Assembly: GCA_000165345.1 (NCBI GenBank)
Contig: CM000431.1
Coordinates: 32,001-96,000 of the forward strand
Reading direction: 5' to 3'
Length of the DNA stretch: 64,000 nt
The notes beneath the pieces are model-generated. The model worked only from the letters and a program-made list of their open reading frames with translations. It was not told the origin of the DNA and did no database searches. Made by a program: the position numbers and the translations under genes. Below, one piece after another: positions 4,815-57,248 of the stretch (position 1 is the first letter of the stretch; every line of letters begins with the position of its first letter).

Positions 4815-4846
4815 TTGCATGCAGTCAGCGCCAACTATTTGGCGCC
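4815..4846. promoter_or_regulatory. Putative promoter element pair upstream of the 5073 gene: TTGCATGCAG and E2F-like TTTGGCGCC
   Basis: ttgcatgcag at 4815-4824 and tttggcgcc at 4838-4846, about 230 bp upstream of the ATG. The same motif pair recurs in other 5' intergenic regions of this window. Confidence 0.45.
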
Positions 4847-5072
4847 TGACGAGTAACGTAAATTTGTTATTAGGAGGGGTGATGGATTTAAAGGATACGA
4901 GGGAAAATAGAGAAATACTTTGTTTATTTAAAAAAAAAGACTACTCTTAAGAATTAATGAAGCATTAATGTGTGTGAGAAGTTTTTACTAAAAAGGTATA
5001 GTAGTGGTATTCTTTGATTTAGCTTGGAAAGAGAATCTGCTCTTGAAAAGGCTAAGGCAATAAGGGACTAAC

Positions 5073-7127
5073 ATGTACGCAAAAGAAGATTTTGGAAATG
5101 CGAATATAAGTCAATTTATTCGACTAAATAACCGGCTAAGAGCTAATGGGTTTTTATCAATACCGTTTCTTCCTGATTTAACTTCTCCTGCTAGATCTCT
5201 TATACTAAATAGAAACCAAGTTGAAGAAGATAATAATGAAGGTACAAATTATTTAAGATACGCAAACCCGGGAGTGAGATTATCAGAAAAATTGGTTCAA
5301 ACCTCAATGATCTCTCAGAATTTAAATGATGTAACTACGCCTCAGAATCTTTCACAAATTGGAGAAACAGAGAGGCAAAATGATAAGTTTGAAATCACTC
5401 CAGGTATTCGTAAGTATACTGATTCTGAATATTCTGGTTTAAACACAGATGATTTGAGAACTGTAGGTTCTATACTACATGGAATTTGTGCTGACAGAGA
5501 TAATTCATTTGAAAATGAACAAAATGTTAATTCTGTAACAGAAATTGCAAGAGAACACTCTGTATCTGGAAGAAATAAGATGGATTTTCCTTTTGATATG
5601 CCGTCAAATTATAGCTCTAAATATGGGATGAAACCTGATGGTAATTTTAGATTAGGGTCAAGTATTGAGCTTTCTTTCACTACTGAACAACCTGAATCCT
5701 TGTCTATGGCAGCTAAACCAGAATCTATTGAAACTAATCAAAGGTTAATAGTTGATGGAAACAAACTCATTTCAACTATTCACAATTTACTATATGAATT
5801 AGAATCTCGAGGTGAACACACTGTTGAAACTATAAACTCTGAAAGGTCACAAAAAAACGGACTTATAGAAAAGTTAAACCTCTTGAGAAGGAAATATGAA
5901 GCCTTAGAGAAAGAGAATGAATCTCTTAGAATGATAAATAGAGTTTTAACCGAAGAAGAACAATCTAATAGAAAAAATAGGGTTCAAGGTAGGGAAACCC
6001 CGCAAGGCTCTGCAATTAGCAAGTTAGAAAGAGAGAAACAGCAACTTCTTGTTGAAAATAGCCGACTAAAACAAGATATTCTAAAGCTTCAAGAGGATGA
6101 TGATAAGTCAAGAGATAAAGCTGATCAATTTTTGAGGTCTGTTAAGAACAATCTGGACAATGAAAGAGATTCTAACAGAGCCAGCACCTTCAACCATACG
6201 GGTACGAGCAGTAATATTAGTGGAACAACCTTAACAACTTTAGAAAAAAAGAAAATTCTTCAATCACACTACCTTTACTCAATAATTGTAGGATTTGAAA
6301 AATCGATCAGCTATTGGAAATTGCAAGCCAACGGACAAAATAACTTAGATTCTAAAAACGGGCAAGACTCATTTGAGGGTAATGAAACTAATTTAGGAAA
6401 TTCAAATGATACTATTTCTGAGAAATCCTTCTTTGAATTTTGTCAAGAAAATAATATTTCCACAAGTGAGTTAATGAAAAGAGACAAGAATCTTTGGACC
6501 AGAGGTCTTTATATGTTACAGAATACTGATAGATCTGAATTAGAAAGCATAGTTAGGTGGTCTTGTAGGCTACTTAATATATCAAACTTTAGAAACATTC
6601 CGATTCAAATTGGACAACTATTAGCCAAAAAGAGTACTTCAGCAACCCCGAAAATCACTCATATTTTCGAAAGTGCTTCATCCAAGAAAATTTCCTCCCA
6701 AAATAATAGCCAAGAAGTCATATCAATTGAACTACATGATCGTTTCTACAACCACTTTAAAACTCTATTTGATGTACTTGATGATCAAGACGTTATCCAA
6801 GCATCTAATGCAATATATATACAACTGAGAGATTTTAAGAAGTTTTTCAAAACTATTTGCTCAACTTTAAGTCTTGATTACAAAACCACCTCTCCCAATG
6901 AATGCCTAAAGATTCTCACTGATCTAATTAACATAAATCACTCAAAGAAAGCTCCAAATACTCAACCTCAGATCCAGTCTTTCCAAGAGAACTCTTCAAA
7001 TGTTCATAATATCATTGAGTCTCTTAAAATTGTTTTAGATGTTGATTCGAATGACCAGATTCTTCCCACTCTAAAGCAACACCTTGAGTCCCAATCTGCT
7101 ATTATTCTTTCTCTCTCAAAGAGCTAA
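5073..7127 (+). CDS. Hypothetical coiled-coil protein, 684 aa
   Basis: Long ATG ORF. Central region is E/K/R/L-rich with heptad-like stretches (LNLLRRKYEALEKENESLRMINRVLTEEE...QQLLVENSRLKQDILKLQEDDDKSRDKADQF). No recognisable catalytic motif. Confidence 0.55.
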   Translation: MYAKEDFGNANISQFIRLNNRLRANGFLSIPFLPDLTSPARSLILNRNQVEEDNNEGTNYLRYANPGVRLSEKLVQTSMISQNLNDVTTPQNLSQIGETERQNDKFEITPGIRKYTDSEYSGLNTDDLRTVGSILHGICADRDNSFENEQNVNSVTEIAREHSVSGRNKMDFPFDMPSNYSSKYGMKPDGNFRLGSSIELSFTTEQPESLSMAAKPESIETNQRLIVDGNKLISTIHNLLYELESRGEHTVETINSERSQKNGLIEKLNLLRRKYEALEKENESLRMINRVLTEEEQSNRKNRVQGRETPQGSAISKLEREKQQLLVENSRLKQDILKLQEDDDKSRDKADQFLRSVKNNLDNERDSNRASTFNHTGTSSNISGTTLTTLEKKKILQSHYLYSIIVGFEKSISYWKLQANGQNNLDSKNGQDSFEGNETNLGNSNDTISEKSFFEFCQENNISTSELMKRDKNLWTRGLYMLQNTDRSELESIVRWSCRLLNISNFRNIPIQIGQLLAKKSTSATPKITHIFESASSKKISSQNNSQEVISIELHDRFYNHFKTLFDVLDDQDVIQASNAIYIQLRDFKKFFKTICSTLSLDYKTTSPNECLKILTDLININHSKKAPNTQPQIQSFQENSSNVHNIIESLKIVLDVDSNDQILPTLKQHLESQSAIILSLSKS

Positions 7128-7217
7128 TTTAGCAATATTTTTTGTTCAAGTTACTCATTTCTTATATATCTACTAATTAATTTTTTTTTTTAATATTTTT
7201 CCTTATACCGGTGTTAC

Positions 7218-7265
7218 GCATGTTTAATTTGATTAATATGCTAAATTCATTAATTGGCGCCAAAC
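7218..7265. promoter_or_regulatory. Putative promoter elements upstream of the Rrp36-like gene: GCATGT and palindromic E2F-like TTGGCGCCAAA
   Basis: gcatgt at 7218-7223 and ttggcgccaaa at 7255-7265, about 115-160 bp upstream of the ATG at 7380. Confidence 0.45.
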
Positions 7266-7379
7266 CATAAATTAAGATTGCAGGAATGCAGGAAGATAAC
7301 TAAAAATAAGTTGAAAAAATAGGGGAAATTCAAAGTGGCATATTTCAAGGCTGTGAAAGTTTGTAATTAATCAAGAGCC

Positions 7380-8180
7380 ATGGATTTTGAAGATATTCCT
7401 TTTGAGGAAATTATAAGAAAAGAAAAGATAGCTGAGTCATTCGAAAAAAGAAAAAGTGCAGAATCAGAAAAAAAAAATGCCAATGGATCCTACAAATCAT
7501 GCAAAGAATTTGAGAAAAATGATGAAATCGATCAAAGACTCAAAAAATATGGAAGAATTACTTCAAAGAACTCTCCAATGGAAGTATCATCTAGAAGACA
7601 AATTTTACCAGAAAAACTAGAAAATGAAAGAAACTATATCAGAAATAAACATGACAGCTCAAAAAAAGGCAATGATCCTAGATTTAATGACTCTTGTGGA
7701 AAGCTCAACACTGACTTATTCCATAAATCATATGACTTCTTAGATGACATGAGACAAAGAGAATTTAATCAGATCAAGAATACATTAGATTTATACAAAA
7801 TTATGACCAAGTCTAAAGAACTTGGAACATGGAATAAAGTTAAGAAATCATCAAAATTTAAAAACTCTGATGTAAATCATCTTACTCAAGACCAAATTGA
7901 CAATCTCAAACTTAAATATCAGAAACTTGTTTCTGAAAAAGATCATAGAAAAAATCTTTACCTTAAACAGCAAACCATATCGCAACATAGAAAGCAGGAA
8001 CAAACTAAAATTGAATCAGGAAAGAAGCCATTCTTTCTTAAACAAAAAGATATCAATTTATCTATTCAACATGATAAATATAAAAATCTTAATAAAAAAC
8101 AAATATCAATGCTTGAACAAAAAATTAATAGAAAAAATGTCTCCAAGTTTAAACCACCAACTTCTCTTAGAAAAATATAA
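7380..8180 (+). CDS. RRP36: rRNA biogenesis protein Rrp36-like (DUF947 family), 266 aa
   Basis: RFNDSCGKLNTDLFHKSYDFLDDMRQREFNQIKNTL matches yeast Rrp36 [39 protein letters not shown]. The C-terminal KPFFLKQKDINLSIQHDKYKNLNKKQISMLEQKINRKN matches the KPF(Y/F)LKKSE...K(F/Y)..LKK...KFL..RRKKN signature. Basic, Lys-rich nucleolar-type composition. Confidence 0.75.
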   Translation: MDFEDIPFEEIIRKEKIAESFEKRKSAESEKKNANGSYKSCKEFEKNDEIDQRLKKYGRITSKNSPMEVSSRRQILPEKLENERNYIRNKHDSSKKGNDPRFNDSCGKLNTDLFHKSYDFLDDMRQREFNQIKNTLDLYKIMTKSKELGTWNKVKKSSKFKNSDVNHLTQDQIDNLKLKYQKLVSEKDHRKNLYLKQQTISQHRKQEQTKIESGKKPFFLKQKDINLSIQHDKYKNLNKKQISMLEQKINRKNVSKFKPPTSLRKI

Positions 8181-8302: not shown

Positions 8303-9075
8303 TTATTTCCTTCCGAGAATTCTTCTGAAAAATACATATATATTTGCTAACAATAGTACAAATATTATGAAATATAGCATCAGTCTCTCAATTACTTTCT
8401 GCTTGTATAATGTACTTGCCAATTTACGACTCTCCATGATATTATAATCTATATTATTCAAACCATATTTGCTTCTTGTCAAGTTATCCCTTTGAACTGT
8501 TAAAGTATTCAAAGAATATAATCCTATATGTTGTGTTTCCTGAGCTAGGTTTGCAGATATTCTTAAATTATCTTCATTCCTTTTCATCAAATCTTCTGTA
8601 GAAACTCCCATATTATATTCTTTTGTCGATGGTTTTAAATAATTCTGACCGTCATTACCACTAATGTTTGTACTCATATCCAACTCTTTATTAGAATAGT
8701 AACTACTAGCCATGCTCTCCTCTCTATATGTGTCAAACTTCCTATATATGTCTTCATATACTCTCTGATATCTTTGATACGATTGGTATTCAATCGAATT
8801 CTTAGATAACGTCATAACCTTAAAAAATAGTTAAACAAACTTAAAAATTGGAAATATAGACATTAAATTTAACTTACTTCATCTTTCAGTTGATCCAAAC
8901 ACTTCTTTGCATCCTGAAATCGACGTTCCAATATAGATATTTCATCCTGTGTAAATTTCTCCCCTCTTCCTCCATCTTCAATATTCACACATTTGAGCAC
9001 TAAACGTTCTATTCCTTGTATAACAGACAAAAACTCCTCTTCATATGACACAAAATACTCGGATGCTGACAACAT
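8303..9075 (-). CDS. Qb-SNARE (Vti1/membrin/Gos1-like), two exons: 9075..8878 and 8818..8303, with a 59-nt intron 8877..8819. Spliced product is 237 aa
   Basis: Track ORF 8869..9075 ends ...LKDE followed by GTAAGT (a canonical donor read through to a stop). The minus strand then shows TTTTTTAAG|GTTATGACG, and the acceptor joins in frame to the 8303..8815 ORF (...LDQLKDE|VMTLSKNSIEYQ...). The product has an N-terminal helical domain (SEYFVSYEEEFLSVIQGIERL, like the Vti1 N-terminus), a SNARE heptad motif (IGLYSLNTLTVQRDNLTRSKYGLNNIDYNIMESRKLASTLYKQKVIERL) and a C-terminal tail anchor (MLYFIIFVLLLANIYVFF). Confidence 0.7.
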
Positions 9076-9834
9076 TTATCAATATTGTTTAATACCTATT
9101 TATTCAATAATTTATATTAAGATCAATTCCCGCCAAAAATGTTTGTATTAATAAACTTTGCATGTATAAGAATTTGTTAAAATAATTATTAATTAAATTA
9201 TTATGAATAGTTCAACTTATATTTCTGATAGTATCCGTAGTCAAACAAAAGAGTATATAATCAACTTACCAAAATATATGAATTAATATTATAAAGAATT
9301 TCAACATTGAAATTTCCCACACTATTAACATTACAATCATAAATGTTTGCCATCTTGTATAGAATATTTGTGCCGTTATATGATCATTATTTTTATTAAT
9401 ATGGATTGAATTAGATCAATGAGTCCTTTCCTTGATTAAACTTGATTTTTATACTTATCCTCAAACAATTATAATGCGTAGTTACCCATAAAATGAAACA
9501 ATAATTTAAAATATTTTAAGCTCCAATTTATATTAACAAACTCTTATTCAAATTTTAGTAAGATAATTAATCGTTAAGCAATCATTTTAAGGGAATTAAA
9601 ATAATAACATTTAATTGAAATCCAGAATTGATATTTTCCGAATTAAAGGTCAATTTTGATTATTTGAAAAATTTTTGAAAATCGATATGAATAAATGATT
9701 GTTAGTACCAATTGAAGACGTTTGTAATTAAAAAAGAATAAATTGTAATTACTTATTAAACAAATATATATGTAATATATTTACAATATATTGATTTCTT
9801 CAATTTCAAACAATTGAAATTTTTTATTAATGAA

Positions 9835-12137
9835 TTAGCATTTTCCATCTTTAGAATCCTTACATTCAAATCCTCCAGGTGTATTTATACAACACTGTGA
9901 TTTACCACAATAATTACCCACTTTACATTCATCTATATCACGGCATGTGAATCCATCTCCTGTATAGCCTTCTGAACATACGCACTCAAATTTACTTAAA
10001 TCATGCGTTGTTTCAAAGATTGAATGTACGTAACATTCCGCATTTTTGGAACATTTGCTACAGACTTCATTCTTAAAGTTTTTCTTGACTTTTTTTGGTA
10101 TCAAAAACATTGGATTATTGAATCTATACTCATCTCTAATCCATTTAGAAATGTGAGATGCTTCATTGCTTAAATCTGATTTATTCATCATAATAGAATG
10201 CATTAAGACGGGTTCTGATGAAATATATTCAATCTCACGATACATATTTGCATCTTTTGATAATGAAATGAAGTATATATCAATATCTTTCTTCAAGCTA
10301 ACGATTCCTGGGCATGTCTTCACAGAAGTACAACCATTAAATCCTGCAGTGATGTATACTATCTTTCTTCTCTTTAATAGCACCTTATTATGATAGCCTC
10401 TTTGATTTGAATGAGAATCAGTACCATTTTGTTGTGCAATAACATTTAATACTCTTTCTGAGTCTTGCTGTGCAACCATACTTAACAATCTATCAACCCT
10501 CATATTATTGTCAGAGCCTTGTAATGTTGATATGAAGCTCGTATGCCCTTGGGTTTTGTTTTGTTCATTAATTGGAACTGACAAAATTTCAGTATTTATT
10601 CCACTCTCGACCAAATTTCTATAAATTACATTTGCAGACAAATTAATTTCTTTCATTTGATCAATATTTGGTACTTTAGACAGATCCATTACTAACGAAA
10701 CTGCATATTTTGGTGGTTCGCTTGTGGTTGTTGTAGTATTTGGATACTCAGTTGTAGTGGTTGTTATATCTGGAATTGTTGTAGTTGTGGTAGTTGTTGG
10801 ATATCCTGTTGTGGATGTGGTTGTTGGATAACCTGTTGTAGAAGTGGTTGTTGGTTGTCCCGTTGTAGAAGTGGTTGTTGGATAACCTGTTGTAGAAGTG
10901 GTTGTTGGATAACCTGTTGTAGAAGTGGTTGTTGGATAACCTGTTGTAGAAGTGGTTGTTGGATATCCTGTTGTAGAAGTAGTTGTTGGATGTTCTGTTG
11001 TAGAAGTGGTTGTTACATTTGGAGCTTTAGTTGTAGTAGTTGTTGGGCTTCCAGTTGTGGTGGCTATTGGACTTCTAGTTGTAGATGTGGTTGTTACATT
11101 TGGAGCTTTAGTTGTAGTAGTTGTTGGGTTTCCAGTTGTAGAAGTGGTTGTTGCATTTGGAGCTTTAGTTGTGGTAGTTGTTGGATTTCCAGTTGTAGAA
11201 GTGGTTGTTGGACTTCTAGTTGTGGATGTGGTAGTGTTTGGACTCCCTGTTGTGGTAGTTGTTGGATATCCTGTTGTGGATGTAGTTGTTACAACTGTAG
11301 TCGTTGTGGTAGTGATTGGAATATTTGGGTATTCTGTTGTTGTGTTGTTGGGAAAGGATAAACTGGATACTCGGTTGTTGTTGTTGTTGGGTATACTGGA
11401 TATTCTGTTGTTGTTGTGGTGGGGTATACTGGATATTCTGTTGTTGTCGTTGTTGGGAAAGGATAAACTGGATACTCTGTTGTTGTTGTGGTTGGGTATA
11501 CTGGATATTCTGTTGTTGTCGTTGTTGGGAAAGGATAAACTGGATACTCTGTTGTTGTTGTGGTTGGGAAAGGATAAACTGGATACTCTGTCGTAGTAGT
11601 TGTTGGAATTGGGTATATTGGATATTCTGTTGTTGTTGTTGTTGGGACTGGGTAAACTGGGTATCCTGTTGTTGTTGATGTCAAATTTAAAATATAGTCA
11701 TATTTGTGGCTATTCCATCCCATTTGGTAAACATTTTTTTGATGATGATTGTAATGATAATGATGGTTTTCCTTTGGTATATAATTAAAATGACTATTAG
11801 TATAAGACCTTTCATCATCGGTTGTATCTATATATTTAGGAGTATATGTATTATAATAAGTGTTATAATATCTATAATTATGGTGGCTTTGATGGTGGTT
11901 GTGTTTATACTTATGACTCTGAGATTCTGCCACCTTTCTATTTAAATTTGACGTACCTTCATCTGTCAAAATTGCATTATTTTCATCATAATCATGTTGA
12001 TTTTCTGGTGAAACCCATGTATCTTGTTCATCAATATCAGAAGCAAAAATAATTGTTAAATTTATCAATAGGAGACCTATTGAGAGAACAAATTTTTTAT
12101 TTAAAACTCCAAACATTAGGAACCGTAAAAAAATCAA
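9835..12137 (-). CDS. Secreted mucin-like glycoprotein. It has a signal peptide, a His/Tyr/Asn-rich segment, a Thr-rich tandem-repeat array and a C-terminal Cys-rich domain with a calcium-binding EGF module. The reading frame is broken once inside the repeat array, near 11345
   Basis: The N-terminus MIFLRFLMFGVLNKKFVLSIGLLLINLTIIFA is a hydrophobic signal. It is followed by HKYKHNHHQSHHNYRYYNTYYNTYTPKY. Next come about 13 copies of TTTTTEYPVYP(FP), then about 15 copies of TTTSTTGYP (27-nt unit). The repeat frame runs without stops into the 9835..10689 ORF (...NTTTTTSEPPKYAVSLVMDLSK...). The C-terminal domain has 16 Cys, including CRDIDECKVGNYC...C.NTPGGFEC, a cbEGF signature. The frame break: the last TEYP unit reads CCAACAACACAACAGAATACCC where sister units read CCAACAACGACAACAACAGAATATCC, a ~4-nt deficit. 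Confidence 0.7.
10700..11690. repeat. Coding tandem repeats (27-nt and 39-nt units of ACN-rich Thr codons) inside the mucin gene
   Basis: On the + strand this is ggatatcctgttgtagaagtggttgtt reiterated, then ggatactc(g/t)gttgttgttg... units. The near-perfect periodicity creates the spurious + strand ORFs 10855..11361, 10952..11596 and 11316..11678. Confidence 0.85.
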
Positions 12138-12186
12138 CTATCTTTTTTTCTAGTTTCCAATTTGAAATTTTACTTAGTTTATTTCC

Positions 12187-12298
12187 GCATGTAGTTTTTT
12201 TGTTTTTTTAATACCGCAATGCATGTGGATGGCTTTTTTTGTCAATTATAAATAATTACGTGTCAAAAGCTACATGCACATTGCATACATGCAAATGC
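12187..12298. promoter_or_regulatory. Cluster of GCATG-core motifs in the 5' region of the mucin gene (GCATGTAG, AATGCATGTGG, TACATGCACATTGCATACATGCAAATGC)
   Basis: Five or more CATGCA/GCATGT occurrences lie within 110 bp, 50-160 bp upstream of the mucin ATG at 12137 (minus strand). Confidence 0.45.
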
Positions 12299-13866: not shown

Positions 13867-14215
13867 TTCTTAATTAGGACTTTTAGCTCGTAAACACCAG
13901 TCAGGAAATATAAGGCTTAGGATCCAAATAGATCCCTATCTCTAAATTATAACCAATCTTCCAATCTACCTTAACGATTTAAAAAAATAAGTAACTCGTA
14001 CACTAGAGCCAATACCAGATGAAACCCTCCCCAAAAGTTGTTTCTTTTCCATTCAAACCTACCTAAAATGTAAAAATCAAAATGACTATTTTCCAAACAC
14101 CAAAATGTTAATGAAACTCCTCTCAGTTCCGACCAAGAAAATTTTTTATTTTATTTATATTTTTCTAAAAAAACAAGGCATTATAAATACAGCCACCATA
14201 CTGTCTCTAACGTAC

Positions 14216-14227
14216 TTTTGGGCGGGC
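14216..14227. promoter_or_regulatory. E2F-like site TTTTGGGCGGGC in the 5' region of the CCCH-WD40 gene
   Basis: acttttgggcgggc lies about 350 bp upstream of the ATG at 13866 (minus strand). Confidence 0.3.
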
Positions 14228-14247
14228 TATCCTATTTTAGTTTAATG

Positions 14248-20387: not shown

Positions 20388-20436
20388 ATTTCCCGCCTAT
20401 TCGACTTTATGATGAATTTTCGAAACAATGCATGAA
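20388..20436. promoter_or_regulatory. E2F-like ATTTCCCGCC plus AATGCATGAA in the 5' region of the 1937-aa gene
   Basis: Motifs lie 330-375 bp upstream of the ATG at 20061 on the minus strand. Confidence 0.4.
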
Positions 20437-21176: not shown

Positions 21177-21765
21177 TTTTTAGCTTAGCTTGTATTTTCT
21201 ACGATATTTCTAGTTATAATAATATTCAAACTATTTATTATAGCTATTTGTATCCTCATTTGCAACTGAATTTGCAAAACTGCTATTTAATGAAGTATCC
21301 TTTTATGGCGCTAACAAATTAGATCGCTCTGCTTGCATAAAACTTTACTCTTTTTCGAGGTTAGTTAAATTAGAATAAGAAATTGACTGACTTTATTAAT
21401 TAAACATAGTTGAATATTTAATCAATCATTAAAATTTGCTTATTAAATTTTTGGCTTGCTATCTTTTGAATTAAATATTTATTTAGGAAATACTGAATAT
21501 AGTTTCGGATAAAAGTCTCAGATTGTGACTCTCTTGTTAAAATATTCTTTAGCTTATTATTTATAAATAAAATGATTTTAATTATTGTTTAGAGTTTGAA
21601 AACAACTTCTCAATTTGAATAGATTATATTAGAAGTCTATTTCTAACTCTAAAAACCGTCAACATCTGGTAATAGGTTGAATTTTCTACCCTCTTGCAAT
21701 CTTTTCTATATCTTTACCTTGAATTAAAGCAACAATTCTGTGATAAAGGCAAATCGACACGTGCT

Positions 21766-21805
21766 AGGCGGGAACATGCATGCAGAAAAAGTGGCGCATG
21801 CAAAA
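21766..21805. promoter_or_regulatory. Dense motif cluster upstream of the CLU-like gene: AGGCGGGAAC (E2F-like), ACATGCATGCAG, GTGGCGCATGCAAAA
   Basis: Three motifs lie in 40 bp, 130-170 bp upstream of the ATG at 21934. Confidence 0.5.
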
Positions 21806-21933
21806 GGAAAAAATTGCTAATCCACTTGTGCAATAATGTCGGTATGCAAAACAATTAAAAATTAAGTACCAATATAGAATTAAATGATAATATAGGCATT
21901 AAATAGTAATAATTAAGGAGGAATATCTTCATA

Positions 21934-35106: not shown

Positions 35107-35434
35107 TTTAAAAATTAATTACGGTCAACTGAGACCTTTTCAAATTAAATTTCATCCAATAATTCAACGAATAAATTTCAGTCTAATGCTTTCGATTTTG
35201 AAACTTCATAATTATAGAAATTGATCTAGTATTTTGATTTTTTAGCCACACACAGTTAAGAAACACCCAGTTAGGAGTGGCAATGCCAATAAAAGATGAG
35301 CAAATGAGAGTAAAGCAAGGGCAAAATGATGCCTTCCAATATATTAACGAATAAAGCCCGGATTCTCAATATACTTCATCAACTTATTAATTTTTTTTTT
35401 AAATAATTAGCATAAAATATATTTTAAATAATAA

Positions 35435-35448
35435 CACGTGTTGGCGCC
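35435..35448. promoter_or_regulatory. CACGTG + E2F-like TTGGCGCC in the 5' region of the PPKL gene
   Basis: cacgtgttggcgcc lies about 330 bp upstream of the PPKL ATG at 35106 (minus strand). Confidence 0.35.
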
Positions 35449-39284: not shown

Positions 39285-39460
39285 CTTTTCCTTCTTTTCT
39301 ACTTAAATACATGTTATTTCTCAAAAAAAATGCTTAACACACTGAGTTATTCCCCATAAGCATACTTTAGATAGCTTAATTTGGCAAAAAACTTTGTTTA
39401 CGATATCTATATTTCTAGTTGTATATTTTCTTTGAATTCATTTTCAATCGGTACCGCCTA

Positions 39461-39593
39461 GGCGCCAATGATAGAGAGATAAAAGGGGAGGCCCAATAAA
39501 ATTAAAGTAAATTATCAATAGTGGCTATTGCATGCGCGAATATATTTTTATTGGGAAGTAATATTTTTGCGAATTTTAATTATTGCATGCAAT
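39461..39593. promoter_or_regulatory. Shared bidirectional promoter region (CDPK-like on minus, 40411 gene on plus) carrying GGCGCCAA, TTGCATGCGCG and ATTGCATGCAAT
   Basis: Motifs at 39461-39468, 39528-39538 and 39582-39593 lie in a 1.1-kb divergent intergenic region. A further GGCGCGCCAA is at 39821-39830. Confidence 0.45.
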
Positions 39594-40410
39594 ATGGAAA
39601 TATGTTTATTTTCATGAACAGTTCTAGATAGGGGTTAGATTTTCTAACTGAATATTTGCGGTAGACTCATTTTCAATAAAAACAGATAAAAGTAGTCAAA
39701 CAATTCATTGTTTGGATACTATCTAGGCTAATTTGGTGCTAATATTCACAAAGGTTTTAATATAATATACATCCTTTCCCCCCCCTTTTAAAGCCATGCA
39801 AAAAAAAAGAAAATAAATTAGGCGCGCCAAGACACGTAATAATGTGTGTAATTGTGTGTTTAGATAATTAATATAAATGTAAATGTCAAGAAGACAAGAG
39901 GAAAAAAAAACCAGCGGAGTTTTGTAGAGGTCAGGGAAATTGGATTTTTTTGTTAAGCAAGAAATAATTAAAATAATTGGAAAAAGGTTCGAGGAAGCCA
40001 GGGAATTGCTCATTTAATATATATTTGGTAGAAAGAAATATCTAATGATTTGATATTAAAGTGGAAGAAACTAAAATTTGCCAGTGGGTATTAAATCTTA
40101 ATGAGGAGTTCTCCTTCCTCCTCTAAAACAAAGCAATTTTAACAATAGCATGCTTACGTTAATTTTGGAGTGGTTGAATAAGACTTCCAAAAAGTGAGGA
40201 TCAGACAAATCAACAAGAAATAGGATATTATTAGTAGAAAAAAGAGAATTTGATTTGTAGTATTGATTTACAAAACCATAAATACTACAAATATACCAAT
40301 ATTTAGTAAATATCAAAGATTCAAAAACAAGCCGTATATGAAGATTTATAATCCTGAAATAAACTACTAAATAACAAGTTAAAAACGATAAATAAGTTAA
40401 TAGAAGAAAT

Positions 40411-44357: not shown

Positions 44358-44432
44358 TGCATGACATGCATGCAATGTTGTTTATTGTGGCGGTAATTTC
44401 AGGGTCAAATGTCAGAAGTTTTGGCGGGAAAG
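44358..44432. promoter_or_regulatory. Promoter elements upstream of the helicase gene: TTGCATGACATGCATGCAATG and the classic E2F site TTTTGGCGGGAAA
   Basis: Motifs at 44358-44378 and 44420-44432 lie 460-540 bp upstream of the ATG at 44894. Confidence 0.5.
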
Positions 44433-49213: not shown

Positions 49214-49422
49214 AAAGTAAATAAGAAAAATAAAAAAATTCATGAAAAAAACAATACAAAATCACGATTTGATATAGGAAAAAAAATTTATTTTAGTTAG
49301 AAAAGGTTTAAGTTAAGTTAAGTTTTTGTAAGGTTTTATGTTTGATAGTTTTTAGTTTTGGGTTTTGGGGTTAAATTTGTCTTGGGATTTTGGGTTTTTT
49401 GGTTTAAAATAAAGAATTAAGG

Positions 49423-50145
49423 TTTTGCCTTTAAGAGTTGGCTTGAGGCTTGAGGCTTTCTGGCCTTTAAGAGTTGACTTAGGGTTTCAGGCTTTCTGAC
49501 CTTTAAGAGTTGGCTTAGGGTTTCAGGCTTTCTAGCCTCCAAGGGTGGTTGGCTTGAGGTTTCAGAATTTTTGGCCTTTAAGAGTTGACTTGGGGTTTCA
49601 GGCTTTCTGACCTTTAAGAGTTGGCTTAGGGTTTCAGGCTTTCAGGCTTTTTGGCCTTTAAGAGTTGGCTTAGGGTTTCAGGCTTTCAGGCTTTCTGGCC
49701 TTTAAGAGTTGGCTTGGGATTTCAGGCTTTCTGACCTTTAAGAGTTGACTTAGGGTTTCAGGCTTTCTGACCTTTAAGAGTTGGCTTAGGGTTTCAGGCT
49801 TTCTAGCCTCCAAGGGTGGTTGGCTTGAGGTTTCAGAATTTTTGGCCTTTAAGGGTTGGCTTAGGGTTTCAGGCTTTTTTGCCTTTAAGAGTTGAATTGG
49901 GGTTTCAGGTTTTTGGCCTTTAAGAGTTGGCTCAGGGTTTCAGGCTTTCTGGCTTTCTGGCTTTCAGGCTTTTTGGCCTTTAAGAGTTGACTTGGGGTTT
50001 CAGGCTTTCTGACCTTTAAAAGTTGACTTAGAGTTTCAGGCTTTCTGACCTTTAAGAGTTGGCTTAGGGTTTCAGGCTTTCTGGCTTTCAGGCTTTCTGG
50101 CCTTTAAGAGTTGGCTTGGGATTTCAGGCTTTCTGGCTTTCTAGC
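49423..50145. repeat. Intergenic minisatellite: about 20 copies of a 36-bp unit (cctttaagagttggcttagggtttcaggctttctga, with 43-bp variants). A higher-order period of ~270 bp is superimposed. The array is flanked by a 19-bp direct repeat TTAAAATAAAGAATTAAGG at 49404-49422 and 50146-50164
   Basis: The unit is read directly from the sequence. The segment ctagcctccaagggtggttggcttgaggtttcagaatttttggcc recurs at about 49531 and about 49801. The array is GC-richer than its surroundings. It is preceded at 49320-49400 by G/T-rich telomere-like sequence (agttttgggttttggggttaaatttgtcttgggattttgggttttttgg), and each unit contains TTAGGGTTT. Confidence 0.85.
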
Positions 50146-50350
50146 TTAAAATAAAGAATTAAGGTAAGGTTTTGACCTCCAAACGTCTTAGGGATTTAAG
50201 CTTCGGGTTTCACCTCGAGCCTCAACCCTTTAAGGTTTTTTTTTTTTTTTTTTGAAATTTAAAGTTAAATAAATACTTAATTATAATAACCTAATAGCCT
50301 TTCAATCATAATTAATATAACCAATTTTATTACTAATTTTAACAAAATAA

Positions 50351-50393
<43 letters not shown>

Positions 50394-50450
50394 TTTTAAT
50401 ATGATCACCAATAATATCAAGAAATTTATAATAAAAAAATTGACCAACTA

Positions 50451-52326
<1,876 letters not shown>

Positions 52327-52826
52327 NNNNNNNNNNNNNNNNNNNNNNNNNNNNNNNNNNNNNNNNNNNNNNNNNNNNNNNNNNNNNNNNNNNNNNNNNN
52401 NNNNNNNNNNNNNNNNNNNNNNNNNNNNNNNNNNNNNNNNNNNNNNNNNNNNNNNNNNNNNNNNNNNNNNNNNNNNNNNNNNNNNNNNNNNNNNNNNNNN
52501 NNNNNNNNNNNNNNNNNNNNNNNNNNNNNNNNNNNNNNNNNNNNNNNNNNNNNNNNNNNNNNNNNNNNNNNNNNNNNNNNNNNNNNNNNNNNNNNNNNNN
52601 NNNNNNNNNNNNNNNNNNNNNNNNNNNNNNNNNNNNNNNNNNNNNNNNNNNNNNNNNNNNNNNNNNNNNNNNNNNNNNNNNNNNNNNNNNNNNNNNNNNN
52701 NNNNNNNNNNNNNNNNNNNNNNNNNNNNNNNNNNNNNNNNNNNNNNNNNNNNNNNNNNNNNNNNNNNNNNNNNNNNNNNNNNNNNNNNNNNNNNNNNNNN
52801 NNNNNNNNNNNNNNNNNNNNNNNNNN
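52327..52826. other. Assembly gap (500 N)
   Basis: An uninterrupted run of n of conventional scaffold-gap length. The true size is unknown. Confidence 0.99.
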
Positions 52827-54267
52827 CAAATGTATGATAGTATTTTTCAAAATATTCTTGTATTATATCATTAATATTATATTCTTGTAATATATTACCA
52901 AATAATTTATTTTTGCTCTGATTTAATATATTTTCCAAAGCAGAAAAATTATAATTCATTATTTTTGATTTAATATTCTCCAAATCAATAAAACTATAAT
53001 TAGAAGTTTGTGTATCATTTACTAATACATTTGTTCTCATATCATACCAACTACAATTTATAGGAAACCATGGTAAAATATTCAAGTTACCTTGTGATTC
53101 AATATAATTTTCTATATAAACTTGTCTCTTAAACCATCTATTTTCGAATATCTTAAAAAACTTTTTAGGAAATATTCTTGTAATGAATTCATATATTTCT
53201 GTATCATATTGAGATAGTATCGAAATTATTTGAGCATATAATATACAATTATCAACATTTGCATGCTCAAGATTATTAATAAATCCCTCATTTATAATTC
53301 TTGCCAAATATATTAATAAAACTCTGCTACTTTTAATCTTATTATTGATTAATTGATATTGACTCTCAGTTGAATCTAATAGTAATGATCTTAAAATAAT
53401 TCCACTCAAAAAGTCAACTTTTGGGATTGATGTTATCGATAGGTCGAACAAAAGATCTAAATAATTTCCACATAAGATTTCAATTGAAACATTTTTTAGT
53501 ACCTTATCTGTCAAATATCTTTGAAAATGTAAGATATTTGAATAAATCTTAAGTATTAAGGTGGTTAATAGTATTGATGAATTCTCATTATATTTTTCTT
53601 GTTTTATAGAAGATGAAATATCAAATACCTTATTTTGATCAAATAATTGTGTAAGATACATATTCTTATGTTGAAATAAAGATTTCCATAATTTGCTAAG
53701 TGCTTTTTCATCATCTTCTTCCGATAAACATCTTCTTAAAGAAATACTTTGAGAAATTTTATCATTACTTTGATTTTTCATTAATTCCAATATTGCTTCT
53801 AAAATTTGACATCTCAATTGAATACCAAGTAAATTAGAACTTGCTATATTTATCATAACTCCAAATATATTTGGAAACTCTCTTGAAAGTAATCCTCTGT
53901 AATAATTACACTTGGAAACTTGAAAAATAAAATTTGATGTAATTGTTAGACACTCCTCTATCTCAAGTCTTAACTCATTCATTAAGAACCTTGGGTCTTC
54001 TTTTTTCATTCTAAATTCTGATATTTCTAGTCTTTTATTTGCAACATTCAAGAACTCATTCACCAATTTAACAGAAAGTAAACTTTTTCTGTTACTGTAA
54101 GTTCCAGAATTTTCTTCTATTTCGTTCATATAATCACTCAAAAAGTTCAATAATACTACATCTTTCATTGAAATTAATACTTCTTTACTCAATTTTCTTC
54201 TATTTTCTGATTCACTCTTTAACTTTCTTATTTTTGAAGCAACCAAACTTAAATTTAACTCTTTCAT
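52827..54267 (-). CDS. Hypothetical protein, N-terminal at least 480 aa; the 3' part is lost in the gap
   Basis: ATG at 54267. The open frame runs to the gap edge at 52827. Helical, Leu/Ile/Asn-rich sequence with no catalytic motif recognised. The track ORF 52318..54267 includes translated Ns. Confidence 0.55.
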
Positions 54268-54405
54268 TTTATTTATATTTAATTAATTTTTTCCTTCTTT
54301 CTTCATCAATTTAAAAAATCCAAATTAAATAAATAAATAGACCAACTTTATAAATAATATATCTCATCCGATTTTCTTTTTTTTTTTCAACCAATAACCA
54401 TTTGT

Positions 54406-54489
54406 TACATGCAAACTATTTGCAAAAAAATGCATTTTGACCTTTTTTTTCCCGCCCAAGATGGCCACATGCAACTGTGCATGCACAAC
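54406..54489. promoter_or_regulatory. Promoter elements for the 54267 gene: TTACATGCAAAC, E2F-like TTTTCCCGCCCAAG, CCACATGCAAC, TGTGCATGCACAAC
   Basis: Four motifs lie within 85 bp, 140-220 bp upstream of the ATG at 54267 (minus strand). Confidence 0.5.
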
Positions 54490-54869
54490 TGAGTCTACCA
54501 AGCTAAAAGGAATTAGTGGAAAAAAATAGGGGGAAAAACAGGGAAAATAGAAAGAAACAATTTGAAAATAAAGAATTTAGCAATTATAACCCAACCCTCT
54601 CTCTCAGAAGCTCCCTTTGTCACACATAAATCCCCTACTTATTTTTTGAATCTCCGGATTTGCGCTTACAAGTTCATTTAAAGTTAATTCTAAAGAGTAA
54701 TTAAAACGCGGGGAAGAGGCAAGAAAAGAAAAATAATTCTATTGAATTCAATGCTAAGAAATATACTGCGATGAAATATCGTATTAGCTACTAATATAAT
54801 TTCCGAATGATGGTAAATTTGAGTGATGATATCTGACGTTAATTAAAAGCTCTTTTCCTTTTAGTGTTT

Positions 54870-56346
54870 CTAATTCTTAGGATTGTTACTAGAGTTATGG
54901 TGGTAATTGTTGCCTGCTTGCCTGTTGGAATTCTTATTATTGAACTTTGAAGAATTTTGTGAAAAGTTCTGGCCCTGAGGCTGATTAATTTGCTTCCACT
55001 TTTCAATAGAGATTTCCATACCTCCAAGGTAAAGGCCATTATTTAAAAGGGTTTTGCAAGAAAACTCTGAATCCAATTCAATAATACCCCAATGCCTACC
55101 ACTAACTCTGGCTCTCTCAATATCAATTACATATCCTCCTCCATGTACCTTAAGTTGGTTCAAAACAGCCTCTCTGATCTGATCATCAGATATATTAGTA
55201 GGAAGTGAGTGCACAAAGATTTTGCGCTTATTTTTTGCTTCCTTTAGAGATTTTGGATCTTTTTGAGTACTTGTTTTTTTTGTCGAACCATTTTGAGATG
55301 CTGTCTTATTCTTATCCTCAGTTGGAACGTGGATTGCATACCCCTTAACCTTATTTCCATTCTTCAATGCTCCCCCCATAAGCTTTCCTGCATAGCTCGT
55401 GACTTCATATTTATGGGGATTAGAACGGTTAATATTAGCGTTATTCTTTGCATTAAGTGAATCAGTATAGTTTACTGGATCCAAAGGTGAAGGAGATGAT
55501 GCCGATGAAGTATTAGCAGCAGCATTATTGGATGTTGTATTAGGAGCGGAAGTACTAGCATTATTACTACTATTATTACTAGTATTAGCAGCAGTAGAAC
55601 TGGAAACCTTTTTCTGAGATTCAGCATTGGAATCAGTATTTGCATGGGCACCCACTGTTGCCACTGATTGACTTTTATTATCATCATCCTCTTTGGGTCC
55701 AGTGGCATGTTTATTAACTTCCTTGTTATGTTCATCATTGCATTGTACCTTACTTGAATGATGTTGTTCTTTCTGGGATTTATTAGTCTCAAAACCCGAG
55801 TCATGAGATTTTTTCCCACTATTCTTAGCTACTCCAGAATCATTATTTGCAATTTTAGCTGTATTCTGAACGCTTTGTTTAAGTGGTAACTCAGAATCAA
55901 TAAATATGAGGCAATCGTTCCTAATAAAATACCACCTTGGGCGAATTTCAGTTAAAAGGAAGTTTTGAACAAAACTTTTTCCAACACTCTCTCCCTCCCC
56001 AATATACATTCTTCCTTTAGCTGTAATGCACAAAGAATTATTGATGGATTTTGAGCATTCAAGCACCTCAACATAAGTTGTACAGTTACTTAAGTCTAAA
56101 AGATTTATTGCAGAACGAATCTTTTCTTTTGTCTCTGCTCTAATTGCAGATTGTGGGTTAAAAGAGCTATCCATAACTTCAGAACGATTCCCCACCCATG
56201 TTAAATATCCAGAGTCGTGATAAAGTTCATATAGGGTTGAGGGGTCCTTCTTCAGACGACTGTAGAACTCTGTTACAAAAAAGTCTGCAATCTTTGATGC
56301 ATTGCAAGTACTGCTATTATTTGTACCTTCTGTCATACTCAGAACT
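54870..56346 (-). CDS. G3BP-like RNA-binding protein (NTF2-like domain + RRM + Asn-rich tail), about 492 aa from the ATG at 56346
   Basis: NTF2-like N-terminus (KIADFFVTEFYSRLKKDPSTLYELYHDSGYLTWVG...FVQNFLLTEIRPRWYFIRNDCLIFID). Acidic and S/T/N-rich middle. C-terminal RRM-like fold (RKIFVHSLPTNISDDQIREAVLNQLKVHGGGYVIDIE...). The Asn-rich tail resembles an RGG region. The track start at 56354 is a TTG; the first ATG is MTEGTNN. Confidence 0.65.
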
Positions 56347-57198
56347 TGTCTCAATTAATTTTGTATTTGAGATTTATAATAAATTATATTGCTTACCAAC
56401 CTTATTGGTATTCTTTAAAGAAAATGTGACTCCTCATTCTTTACCGATTATTTTAATATAGACGTGAAAAAATTTAATAACTTATGCTTAAATATTATTT
56501 ATATATATTTTAATATTTAATAAATATATATTCATGGCGGCACACAATATTCTCTTTTTAATAAATAAATATTTAATTTTTCCATACATTTTCCCTCCAA
56601 ATAATGTTTATTTTCTTTATTTATTCTTAAATAATTTAAGTTCGTTTAATGCGATCCTTTCTTTTCTAATTAAAGCTTGATTAATCATTTTTAATAGACT
56701 TTTTGTTGAAACATGAAAAAAAAGTTGTAATCTTAATACATTTAGTGTACTAACTACAGTACTAATTCAAATTTCTTGGCTCACACACTTCAAATCCATT
56801 TTTTTCTACTATGTGGGTTAAATATAATTTCCAAAGTTGCTTTAATTCTATATGGATTTTAGTAAACTTGGAGGAAAAAAAAAATATTTAGTCCAATATA
56901 CATCCTTAAACCTATTACTGATTTAGAACGGCTTATAATACACAATATGGAAACTAACCATTTAATTCATATACTTAGAAAGAGAAATTCAAAGAAATGA
57001 TTAAATCTTTAAAGGAAAAAGAGCTATTATTTTTATTTTGAGTAGTAAATTAGAAAAATAAAAAAACAAATGATTTCTTTATTAAAATAAAAATATCATT
57101 TATATATTTTTGCTAAGCTCCATTTGCTATTTTATATTAAGATTAATTATAGTTTTTAGTACCGGTATTGCAATTTTCAATTTTTATTTTTATTTTTT

Positions 57199-57248
57199 TT
57201 GCATGTAGCAATGATCAATAAATGCATGCAGGGGGACAATTGCATGTG
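57199..57248. promoter_or_regulatory. Promoter elements upstream of the RCC1-repeat gene: TTGCATGTAGC, AATGCATGCAGGGGG, ATTGCATGTGG
   Basis: Three GCATG-core motifs, one followed by a G5 box, lie 370-420 bp upstream of the ATG at 57618. Confidence 0.45.

What the first reader, a model, noticed from the sequence alone, without database searches (positions are those of the whole stretch)
4815..57248. Recurrent promoter grammar: E2F-like GGCGGGAA/TTGGCGCC boxes paired with (T)GCATGC(A) motifs in nearly every 5' intergenic region
Seen directly in the sequence: TTTGGCGCC (4838), TTGGCGCCAAA (7255), TTTTGGGCGGGC (14216), ATTTCCCGCC (20388), AGGCGGGAAC (21766), TTGGCGCC (35441), GGCGCCAA (39461), TTTTGGCGGGAAA (44420) and TTTTCCCGCCC (54447). 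Each lies within 100-550 bp of a start codon, and each sits next to one or more GCATGC/CATGCA cores (4815, 7218, 12187-12298, 20427, 21775-21805, 39528/39582, 44358-44378, 54406-54489, 57199-57248). These GC-rich octamers are unlikely to recur by chance in ~30% GC intergenic DNA. Over-representation of an E2F-type TGGCGCCA motif and a TGCATGCA AP2-type motif upstream of genes has been described for Cryptosporidium. So the pattern supports both the taxonomic assignment and a shared cis-regulatory code for this housekeeping gene set.
Basis: partly seen in the sequence, partly recalled or inferred. Interest (0 to 1): 0.55.

Follow-up and report, generated by a model that had tools for sequence, protein, structure and literature searches.

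The report
Known Cryptosporidium E2F and AP2 promoter motifs
The window is Cryptosporidium parvum chromosome 3, and the recurring GC-rich boxes and TGCATGCA motifs upstream of its genes are real, conserved promoter elements that have been described genome-wide since 2003-2013, so this is a sound but ordinary finding.

Summary
All nine quoted GC-rich boxes are present within 1 nt of the stated coordinates. Every GGCGCC (4) and GGCGGG/CCCGCC (6) hexamer in the 64 kb lies in an intergenic region that contains a gene 5' end. None lies in 52 kb of genic DNA or in 3'-3' spacers. TGCATG/CATGCA is about 7-fold enriched upstream. No dinucleotide shuffle reached the observed counts.

Exact protein matches identify the window as C. 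parvum Iowa II chromosome 3. Orthologous intergenic regions from seven other Cryptosporidium species keep the boxes in place while the flanks diverge.

These are the published E2F-like motifs (DTTGSCGCCH, TTTGGCGGGAAV) and the AP2_1 motif (TGCATGCA), reported by Bankier 2003, Mullapudi 2007 and Oberstaller 2013/2014.

Three points are overstated:
- Both motifs occur together in 8 of 14 upstream regions, not nearly every one.
- Co-occurrence per region is not significant.
- The code is genome-wide, not specific to a housekeeping gene set.

One result may be new. Where both motifs occur, they sit 8-68 bp apart, tighter than the positional nulls predict. A third element with an ACGT core (ACACGT) often joins them.

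The parts
4816..4846 (.). Promoter module upstream of gene 5073-7127(+). It holds TGCATGCA (4816-4823) and the E2F-like TTTGGCGCC (4838-4846), 25 bp apart and 232 bp from the ATG. A conserved G-box block, GGAGGGGTGATGG, follows at 4873.
   Evidence: TGCATGC and GGCGCC are kept at the same place in chipmunk genotype I and C. canis.
7254..7264 (.). Palindromic E2F-like box TTGGCGCCAAA, 124 bp upstream of the RRP36 gene (7380-8180, +). In C. parvum it has only a GCATG 5-mer (7218) as neighbour.
   Evidence: TTGGCGCCAA is invariant in chipmunk genotype I, C. canis and C. ryanae (conservation 1.00 against 0.52 for the region).
9127..9164 (.). Module upstream of the SNARE gene (8303-8815, -).
   Evidence: C. 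canis keeps TTCCCGCCAAAA plus CATGCA 28 bp away. Chipmunk genotype I has the 1-nt variant TTTCCCGCT.
12220..12293 (.). AP2-type cluster with no E2F box, upstream of the mucin-like gene 9835-12116(-): TGCATG 12220, CATGCA 12273 and 12288, plus ACGTGT at 12258.
   Evidence: CATGCA copies are kept in chipmunk genotype I, C. ubiquitum, C. canis, C. ryanae and C. andersoni.
14201..14227 (.). E2F-like box TTTTGGGCGGGC (14216-14227), preceded by the conserved block CTGTCTCTAAC. It lies 355 bp upstream of the CCCH/WD gene (12658-13866, -) and only about 20 bp past the stop codon of gene 14248-20061. It has no AP2-type partner.
   Evidence: TTTGGGCGGGC is kept in chipmunk genotype I and C. canis, appears as TTTTGGCGGGC in C. 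ryanae and as the variant GAGCGGGC in C. ubiquitum. Conservation is 0.96.
20388..20434 (.). Module upstream of gene 14248-20061(-): E2F-like ATTTCCCGCC (20388-20397) and TGCATG (20429-20434), 37 bp apart and 331 bp from the ATG.
   Evidence: TTCCCGCC is kept in chipmunk genotype I and C. canis, with the variant TTCCCGCT in C. ubiquitum.
21755..21832 (.). Composite module in the divergent promoter between 20679-21176(-) and 21934-30207(+). It reads GACACGTG (ACGT core, 21757), AGGCGGGAAC (21766), CATGCATGCA (21775-21784), GGCGCATGCAA (21793-21803) and TAATCCACTTGTGCA (21818).
   Evidence: The whole block is nearly invariant in chipmunk genotype I, C. ubiquitum and C. canis, and is recognisable in C. 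ryanae. Conservation is 0.92-1.0 against 0.59 for the region.
35434..35448 (.). ACACGTGT palindrome abutting the E2F-like TTGGCGCC (35441-35448), 335 bp upstream of the true PPKL start codon at 35106. There is no AP2-type 6-mer in the true intergenic region.
   Evidence: exon 1 35106-35026, intron, exon 2 from 34613. TTGGCGCC is kept in chipmunk genotype I and C. canis, and appears as TTTGGCGCT in C. ubiquitum and TTTGCGCGCC in C. felis. Conservation is 0.94.
39447..39591 (.). CDPK-proximal part of the divergent promoter between 35742-39284(-) and 40411-43803(+). It holds the conserved ATCGGTACCGCC, then TAGGCGCCAA (39459-39468), TGCATGC at 39529 and TGCATGCA at 39584.
   Evidence: GGCGCC is kept in C. 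ubiquitum, chipmunk genotype I and C. canis.
39795..39859 (.).
   Evidence: GGCGCGCCAAGACACGTAAT..GTGTGT is kept in C. ubiquitum, chipmunk genotype I, C. canis, C. felis and C. ryanae. Conservation is 0.83-1.0.
44358..44431 (.). Module upstream of the SKI2 helicase gene (44894-49213, +): TGCATG 44358, CATGCATGCA 44365-44374 and the E2F-like TTTTGGCGGGAAA 44419-44431, 471 bp from the ATG.
   Evidence: TGGCGGG with a CATGC core 19-63 bp upstream is kept in C. ubiquitum, chipmunk genotype I, C. canis and C. felis.
54408..54498 (.). Module upstream of gene 50451-54267(-): CATGCA 54408, TTTTCCCGCCC 54447-54457, CACATGCAAC 54468, TGCATGCA 54478-54485 and GAGTCTAC 54491.
   Evidence: The order 'E2F box then CATGCA' is kept in chipmunk genotype I, C. 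felis and C. ryanae. In C. andersoni and C. muris it appears as TGGCGCC followed by TGCATG 26 bp on.
57200..57246 (.). AP2-type cluster in the divergent promoter between 54870-56336(-) and 57618-63254(+): TGCATG 57200, TGCATGCA 57223-57230, TGCATG 57241. The only E2F-like element in this region is a weak GGCGGC at 56536, 664 bp away.
   Evidence: No orthologous locus was available for this region.

Best explanation
These are core-promoter cis-elements of Cryptosporidium parvum genes. The boxes TTTSSCGC, TTGGCGCCAA and TTTGGCGGGAA are the genus's abundant E2F-like motif, most likely bound by the parasite's E2F/DP winged-helix heterodimers. The (T)GCATGC(A) motifs are the AP2_1 sites bound by several ApiAP2 domains.

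Both kinds of site sit in either orientation in a short stretch of about 100 bp, 120-540 bp upstream of the start codon, often with an ACGT-core element beside them. This stretch serves one gene or a divergent gene pair.

What is shown here: strict confinement to intergenic regions that contain a gene 5' end, counts far above the compositional expectation, conservation of position across species, and close spacing of the two motif types.

What is inferred from the literature: which proteins bind, and that binding drives transcription. The likely division of labour is that E2F/DP provides general or early-asexual promoter activity and opens chromatin, while ApiAP2 proteins add stage-specific modulation.
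For: Enrichment and location:
- All 10 GGCGCC/GGCGGG hexamers, and 13 of 15 TTSSCGC matches, lie in 9.6 kb of 5'-containing intergenic DNA. None lies in 1.8 kb of 3'-3' spacer.
- 0 of 1000 dinucleotide shuffles reach the observed counts.
- An unbiased 6-mer scan ranks CATGCA, ACACGT and GCGCCA as the top enriched words that are not made only of A and T.

Conservation:
- E2F 6-mer windows score 0.79 against a background of 0.54 (MWU p=7e-6). AP2 6-mers score 0.64 (p=3e-3).
- The alignments show boxes kept while the flanks diverge, as far out as C. ryanae, and in one case as far as C. andersoni and C. muris.
- Upstream enrichment recurs in C. ubiquitum, chipmunk genotype I, C. canis, C. felis and C. 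ryanae.

Spacing:
- The nearest E2F-to-AP2 distances are 8, 17, 25, 26, 30, 37, 54, 68 and 664 bp. Under uniform placement within each region, P is 0.001-0.009.
- When AP2 sites are swapped between regions while their distance to the ATG is kept, P is 3e-4 for the median and 7e-6 for the count within 70 bp.

Literature:
- The same motifs were reported genome-wide, and AP2 binding to TGCATGCA was shown on protein-binding microarrays (PMC3734150; PMC4117751).
- C. parvum encodes two E2F and two DP genes (PMC12246861).
- E2F motifs are the top motif in sporozoite ATAC-seq peaks (bioRxiv 10.1101/2025.01.17.633476).
Against: - I found no direct evidence that Cryptosporidium E2F/DP binds these boxes.
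- The ATAC-seq preprint reports no AP2 motifs among its top motifs in sporozoite open chromatin. That sits awkwardly with AP2 sites lying 8-68 bp from E2F boxes here.
- Co-occurrence of the two motifs per region is not above chance (Fisher p=0.27).
- Transcription start sites are unknown here. The close spacing may only reflect two independent preferences for the same nucleosome-free stretch.
- Orthologous promoters of C. andersoni and C. muris mostly lack strict boxes.
- The cross-species tests are not phylogenetically independent.
Confidence: 0.85

Rival explanations
1. The two motif types form an obligate composite element. In this reading E2F/DP and an AP2_1-binding ApiAP2 bind cooperatively and need to be close together, so the pairing is itself the functional unit rather than two independent sites in one promoter.
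For: Eight of nine E2F boxes in regions that also carry AP2 6-mers lie within 68 bp of one. This is tighter than both positional nulls predict. Proximity is kept in chipmunk genotype I, C. canis and C. felis. With a relaxed box definition it is also seen in C. andersoni, at 9-44 bp (P about 0.05-0.09).
Against: Spacing and orientation are not fixed. For the SKI2 promoter the distance ranges from 19 to 63 bp across species. Three well-conserved E2F boxes (7254, 14216, 35441) have no AP2 6-mer partner, and two AP2 clusters (12220-12293, 57200-57246) have no nearby E2F box. Co-occurrence per region is not significant (p=0.27). A shared preference for the region around the transcription start would give the same proximity.
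Confidence: 0.2
2. The GC-rich boxes are real promoter elements but are read by a factor other than E2F/DP, such as another GC-box or CpG-binding protein, or they act mainly as nucleosome-excluding sequence in AT-rich DNA.
For: No direct E2F/DP binding data exist for Cryptosporidium. Published expression clusters carrying the motif peak at every time point, so it does not track E2F expression (PMC3734150). Gastric species keep only degenerate versions at orthologous promoters.
Against: The boxes match the canonical 12-bp E2F/DP site: an SSCGCS core with a T-run on one side and an A-run on the other, as in TTTTGGCGGGAAA at 44419 and TTGGCGCCAAA at 7254. Conservation is base-specific within the core, not merely a matter of GC content. 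Among apicomplexans, Cryptosporidium alone both keeps E2F/DP genes and shows this motif (PMC3734150, PMC12246861).
Confidence: 0.1
3. The recurrence is a chance or compositional artefact of short words in a 64-kb window.
Against: 0 of 1000 shuffles reach the observed counts. The distribution is 10/0/0 across upstream, convergent and genic DNA, even though genic DNA is more GC-rich. An unbiased k-mer scan recovers the same words. The instances are conserved at orthologous positions in other species.
Confidence: 0.01

Closest known systems
C. parvum E2F-like upstream motifs (Oberstaller 2013 motif 3 DTTGSCGCCH and motif 4 TTTGGCGGGAAV; first noted by Bankier 2003; canonical E2F/DP site TTTSSCGC)
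   Same: The sequence variants are identical: TTGGCGCC(AA) and TT(T)GGCGGGAA. The restriction to upstream intergenic DNA is the same, as are the use of either orientation and the high prevalence (11 of 14 upstream regions here, against 161 of 200 expression clusters in the literature).
   Different: Nothing differs in kind. This window adds conservation of individual instances in species far more diverged than C. hominis. It also shows that strict boxes are mostly absent from the orthologous promoters of C. andersoni and C. muris.
ApiAP2 AP2_1 motif, 5'-[T/C]GCATGC[A/G]-3' (bound by cgd2_3490, cgd1_3520 and others; the orthologous P. falciparum domain PF14_0633 binds the same site)
   Same: The same palindromic core is enriched upstream (27 against 20 occurrences in a five-fold smaller space). 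It often occurs in clusters of 2-4 copies.
   Different: It is less exclusive to promoters than the E2F box: 20 TGCATG/CATGCA copies are genic, including two TGCATGCA at 59450 and 59462. It is also less strongly conserved (0.64 against 0.79).
Flexible ('billboard'-type) cis-regulatory modules of compact eukaryotic promoters
   Same: Several different factor sites are packed into about 100 bp, with variable order, spacing and orientation, and are conserved as a block.
   Different: Whether the factors cooperate is untested. No such module has been formally described for Cryptosporidium in the papers I could read.

Membership tests
E2F/DP binding site (Cryptosporidium E2F-like motif family) | Sequence: an SSCGCS core flanked by a T-run and an A-run (TTTSSCGC / GCGSSAAA) | tested here: met
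   There are 13 upstream matches to TTSSCGC|GCGSSAA. Full 11-13-mers include TTTTGGCGGGAAA (44419), TTGGCGCCAAA (7254) and TTCCCGCCAAAA (9127).
E2F/DP binding site (Cryptosporidium E2F-like motif family) | Over-representation in upstream regions relative to coding and downstream DNA | tested here: met
   Strict hexamers split 10/0/0 and TTSSCGC splits 13/0/2 across upstream, convergent and genic DNA. 0 of 1000 shuffles reach the observed counts.
E2F/DP binding site (Cryptosporidium E2F-like motif family) | Purifying selection on individual instances (phylogenetic footprint) | tested here: met
   Conservation is 0.79 against a background of 0.54, MWU p=7e-6. See also the alignments.
E2F/DP binding site (Cryptosporidium E2F-like motif family) | The genome encodes E2F and DP proteins | not tested
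   None is encoded in this window. The literature lists cgd1_1560 and cgd6_1430 (E2F) and cgd7_3650 and cgd8_1850 (DP) (PMC12246861).
E2F/DP binding site (Cryptosporidium E2F-like motif family) | Physical binding by E2F/DP and an effect on transcription | not testable with these tools
   I found no published binding assay for Cryptosporidium E2F/DP. The only indirect support is enrichment of the motif in ATAC-seq peaks.
ApiAP2 AP2_1 site (TGCATGCA) | Sequence: a palindromic GCATGC / TGCAT core | tested here: met
   There are 6 upstream TGCATGCA, 9 GCATGC and 27 TGCATG/CATGCA.
ApiAP2 AP2_1 site (TGCATGCA) | Upstream over-representation and conservation | tested here: met
   The motif is 7-13-fold enriched (p=3e-11). 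Conservation is 0.64 against 0.54 (p=3e-3). Upstream enrichment is also seen in six other species, including C. andersoni.
ApiAP2 AP2_1 site (TGCATGCA) | Bound by ApiAP2 domains | not testable with these tools
   Protein-binding microarray data in the literature cover cgd2_3490, cgd1_3520 and others (PMC3734150; PMC4117751). Occupancy at these loci is unknown.
Fixed-geometry composite element (E2F + AP2) | Significant co-occurrence of the two motifs in the same promoters | tested here: not met
   Both occur in 8 of 14 regions, against E2F in 11 and AP2 in 9. Fisher one-sided p=0.27.
Fixed-geometry composite element (E2F + AP2) | Closer spacing than independent placement predicts | tested here: met
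   The median nearest distance is 30 bp, and 8 of 9 are within 70 bp. P is 0.001-0.009 under the uniform null and 3e-4 / 7e-6 under the null that swaps sites between regions. A shared preference for the transcription start is not excluded.
Fixed-geometry composite element (E2F + AP2) | Constant spacing and orientation across instances and species | tested here: not met
   Spacings run from 8 to 68 bp, in both orders and orientations. At one promoter the spacing drifts from 19 to 63 bp between species.

The most novel reading that the evidence does not exclude
E2F-like boxes and AP2_1 sites, often with a previously unlisted ACGT-core element (G)ACACGT, form a compact composite promoter module of under 70 bp. 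On this reading the module is conserved across the genus, from C. parvum to C. andersoni, which would imply functional interplay between the ancestral E2F/DP system and ApiAP2 factors. Published work treats the motifs one at a time or tabulates co-occurrence only per expression cluster.
Probability: 0.2. Interest if true: 0.45.

Novelty: already known. Interest (0 to 1): 0.15.

Why it matters
Cryptosporidium is the only apicomplexan that keeps E2F/DP, and how its promoters work remains largely unvalidated by experiment. This window adds no new principle. It does supply a set of individually conserved, precisely located E2F-like, AP2_1 and ACGT-core sites. The best examples are 21755-21832, 39795-39859 and 54408-54498, which are ready targets for promoter mutagenesis or CUT&RUN validation. 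If the short spacing between E2F and AP2 sites holds genome-wide relative to mapped transcription starts, it would point to combinatorial control by the two transcription-factor families.

Tried and rejected
- Chance or composition: rejected by the shuffles, the compartment counts and an unbiased 6-8-mer scan.
- Co-occurrence of the two motifs per region: tested and not significant.
- A 'housekeeping gene set': Pfam annotation shows a functionally mixed neighbourhood and no transcription-factor gene in the window.
- First-pass gene map: it wrongly treated 10690-11288 and 34302-35106 as intergenic. The first is the Thr-rich repeat of a single mucin-like gene. The second is the PPKL 5' exon plus intron. 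Both were corrected with orthologue models and tblastn, and the statistics were rerun.
- Literature: the search for the ACACGT motif in Cryptosporidium returned only primer sequences. The search for cross-species E2F footprinting found nothing. Bankier 2003 (PMC403770) is not held.
- An independent genome-wide test of the spacing was not possible.
- Alignment-based conservation is conservative. MAFFT misplaced some boxes that are present, for example the C. canis TTCCCGCCAAAA in the SNARE promoter.

Full report
**Source of the window.** Four ORF translations match database proteins of Cryptosporidium parvum Iowa II residue for residue (EAK87316, EAK87318, EAZ51203, EAZ51204). Newer annotations number them CPATCC_000981-000995, and sister-species entries carry chromosome-3 tags. 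The window holds a 500-N assembly gap at 52327-52826. Pfam assigns the genes to a mixed set: tubulin chaperone D, RRP36, a Sec20-like SNARE, an EGF-containing protein, a CCCH/WD protein, PPP4R2, the Kelch phosphatase PPKL, a CDPK, the SKI2 helicase, an NTF2 protein, an RCC1-repeat protein and N-myristoyltransferase. None is an E2F, DP or AP2 protein.

**Check of the observation.**
- All nine quoted GC-rich strings are present at or within 1 nt of the stated positions.
- The listed GCATGC/CATGCA cores are present too. The exception is 7218, which is only GCATG in C. parvum.

**Gene models.** I corrected two models using orthologue gene calls and tblastn.
- 9835-12116(-) is one mucin-like gene whose middle encodes Thr-rich repeats.
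- PPKL has a 27-codon first exon at 35106-35026 and a 412-bp intron.

**Enrichment.** With these models the window holds 14 intergenic regions that contain a gene 5' end (9,606 bp), 1,825 bp of 3'-3' spacer and 52,069 bp of genic DNA. Counts as upstream/convergent/genic:

| Pattern | Counts | p |
|---|---|---|
| GGCGCC | 4/0/0 | |
| GGCGGG or CCCGCC | 6/0/0 | |
| TTSSCGC or GCGSSAA | 13/0/2 | 1.7e-9 |
| GCATGC | 9/0/4 | |
| TGCATG or CATGCA | 27/0/20 | 3e-11 |
| TGCATGCA | 6/0/2 | |

- None of 1000 dinucleotide-preserving shuffles of the upstream regions reached any observed count.
- An unbiased 6-mer comparison of upstream and coding DNA ranks CATGCA, ACACGT and GCGCCA as the top words not made only of A and T.
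- The boxes lie 124-537 bp upstream of the nearest ATG, in either orientation.

**Pairing.** E2F-like boxes occur in 11 of 14 upstream regions, AP2-type 6-mers in 9 and both in 8. Co-occurrence per region is not above chance (Fisher p=0.27). 'Nearly every region' is an overstatement.
- Boxes 14216 and 35441 have no AP2-type partner, and 7254 has only a 5-mer.
- Two AP2 clusters (12220-12293 and 57200-57246) have no nearby E2F box.
- Where both occur they are close. The nearest distances are 8, 17, 25, 26, 30, 37, 54, 68 and 664 bp.
- Uniform placement within each region gives P=0.001-0.009.
- A stricter null swaps AP2 sites between regions while keeping their distance to the ATG. It gives P=3e-4 for the median and 7e-6 for the count within 70 bp.
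- Transcription starts are unknown here. I cannot separate true coupling from two independent preferences for the same nucleosome-free stretch.

**Comparative evidence.** Through orthologues of two long genes and of PPKL I fetched syntenic loci from seven other species: C. ubiquitum, chipmunk genotype I, C. canis, C. felis, C. ryanae, C. andersoni and C. muris.
- In orthologous intergenic regions the boxes recur at matching positions while the flanks diverge.
- TTGGCGCCAA upstream of RRP36 is invariant out to C. ryanae.
- The block GACACGTGCTAGGCGGGAACATGCATGC...GGCGCATGCAA...TAATCCACTTGTGCA (21755-21832) is almost unchanged in four species and recognisable in C. ryanae.
- TTAGGCGCGCCAAGACACGTAAT..GTGTGT (39818-39859) is kept in six species.
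- The order 'E2F box then CATGCA' upstream of gene 50451-54267 persists even in C. andersoni and C. muris.
- In MAFFT alignments, 6-mer windows on E2F boxes are 0.79 conserved against a background of 0.54 (MWU p=7e-6). AP2 6-mers score 0.64 (p=3e-3).
- These figures are conservative, because some boxes that are present were misaligned. They are also not phylogenetically independent.
- Upstream enrichment over coding DNA recurs in C. ubiquitum, chipmunk genotype I, C. canis, C. felis and C. ryanae.
- The short E2F-to-AP2 spacing recurs in the closer species.

**What it is.** The two GC-rich variants match motif 3 (DTTGSCGCCH) and motif 4 (TTTGGCGGGAAV) of Oberstaller et al. 2013, who called them E2F-like. 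TGCATGCA is their AP2_1 motif (PMC3734150).
- A 2025 review credits Bankier et al. 2003 with the first report of both motifs (PMC12246861).
- The E2F motif was found upstream of 161 of 200 expression clusters. Several AP2 domains (cgd2_3490, cgd1_3520 and others) bind TGCATGCA on protein-binding microarrays (PMC4117751).
- C. parvum encodes two E2F and two DP proteins.
- E2F motifs dominate sporozoite ATAC-seq peaks (bioRxiv 10.1101/2025.01.17.633476).

The most likely mechanism is ordinary promoter recognition. E2F/DP heterodimers would bind the GC-rich boxes and ApiAP2 proteins the TGCATGCA sites, all within a compact core promoter that serves one gene or a divergent pair.
- Shown here: location, enrichment, conservation and spacing.
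- Inferred: the identity of the bound proteins and the transcriptional effect.
- I found no paper reporting direct binding of Cryptosporidium E2F/DP to DNA.
- The ATAC-seq preprint states that AP2 motifs were not among the enriched motifs. This sits in mild tension with AP2 sites lying 8-68 bp from E2F boxes here.

Correct: the taxon, the motif identities and a cis-regulatory role. Not supported: a code specific to a 'housekeeping gene set', because the motif is generic across the genome and the genes here are heterogeneous. Also not supported: pairing 'in nearly every' region.

**Novelty.** This is already known, as a local instance of a published genome-wide pattern. Three small observations may go beyond the papers I could read. 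All rest on one 64-kb neighbourhood and its orthologues and need a genome-wide test.
1. The close spacing of E2F and AP2 sites.
2. An ACGT-core word, (G)ACACGT. It occurs 8 times upstream and 0 times in genic DNA (p=2.7e-7) and is conserved at two promoters. It is absent from the 25 published motifs.
3. The near absence of strict E2F boxes from the orthologous promoters of the gastric species C. andersoni and C. muris, where only degenerate versions such as TTGGCGGAAA and TAGGCGCT remain.

Noticed in passing
window 3073, 12258, 12486, 21757, 35434-35441, 39832, 44133: An ACGT-core word, (G)ACACGT / ACGTGTC, occurs 8 times in upstream intergenic DNA and never in 52 kb of genic DNA (p=2.7e-7). 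It abuts E2F boxes at 21757, 35434 and 39832 and is conserved out to C. ryanae at two promoters. It is not among the 25 motifs of Oberstaller 2013. It resembles bZIP/ABRE-type ACGT elements, a comparison made from memory and not tested.
   Followed up: partly
L008, L009 (C. andersoni) and L012 (C. muris), intergenic regions orthologous to window 12117-57617: Strict GGCGSS boxes are absent from about 6 kb of orthologous upstream DNA in the two gastric species, apart from one TGGCGCC upstream of the gene-17 orthologue. Only degenerate boxes remain (TTGGCGGAAA, TAGGCGCT, TTTGCGCG). TGCATG is still enriched in C. andersoni. The relaxed boxes lie 9-44 bp from CATGCA cores. This may be a lineage difference in E2F-site usage, but the sample is small.
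   Followed up: partly
window 59450-59469: Two TGCATGCA octamers lie 12 bp apart inside the RCC1-repeat ORF 57618-63254, where they encode ...SACIVACI.... These are the only genic TGCATGCA copies in the window. They could be chance or an internal or antisense promoter. No orthologous locus was available.
   Followed up: no
window 9835-12116 (-): The two ORFs 9835-10689 and 11289-12116, with the 'spacer' between them, form one gene (792 aa in chipmunk genotype I). The middle part, 10690-11436, encodes Thr-rich TTTSTTGYP-type tandem repeats, as in a mucin-like protein with a C-terminal EGF domain. The frame is interrupted in this assembly.
   Followed up: partly
window 49214-54267 (-), N run 52327-52826: The 500-N gap interrupts a very large gene. 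Against the 2,923-aa chipmunk orthologue, residues 1-479 and 2341-2638 align on either side of the gap, so about 1,860 codons are missing from this assembly. The surrounding 50-54 kb is only 16% GC.
   Followed up: partly
window 34614-35106: PPKL (Kelch-phosphatase) has a 27-codon first exon (35106-35026) and a 412-bp intron (35025-34614). The original 772-aa Iowa II model is truncated at the 5' end. The CATGCA copies at 34703 and 34784 are intronic.
   Followed up: yes
window 4873, 14201, 21818, 35487, 39447, 39844: Other intergenic blocks are conserved across species and are neither E2F nor AP2_1 sites: the G-box-like GGAGGGGTGATGG (4873), CTGTCTCTAAC (14201), TAATCCACTTGTGCA (21818), TTTCAAGATCAT (35487), ATCGGTACCGCC (39447) and GTGTGTAATTGTGTGT (39844). 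GTGTGT is the reported protein-binding-microarray motif of AP2 cgd5_2570.
   Followed up: no
window 2974-3163 and 31298-31982: Two upstream regions, those of gene 3164-4642 and of PPP4R2, carry neither an E2F-like box nor an AP2-type 6-mer. The first has only an ACGTGT at 3073. The C. ubiquitum orthologue of the second has one TGCATGC.
   Followed up: no
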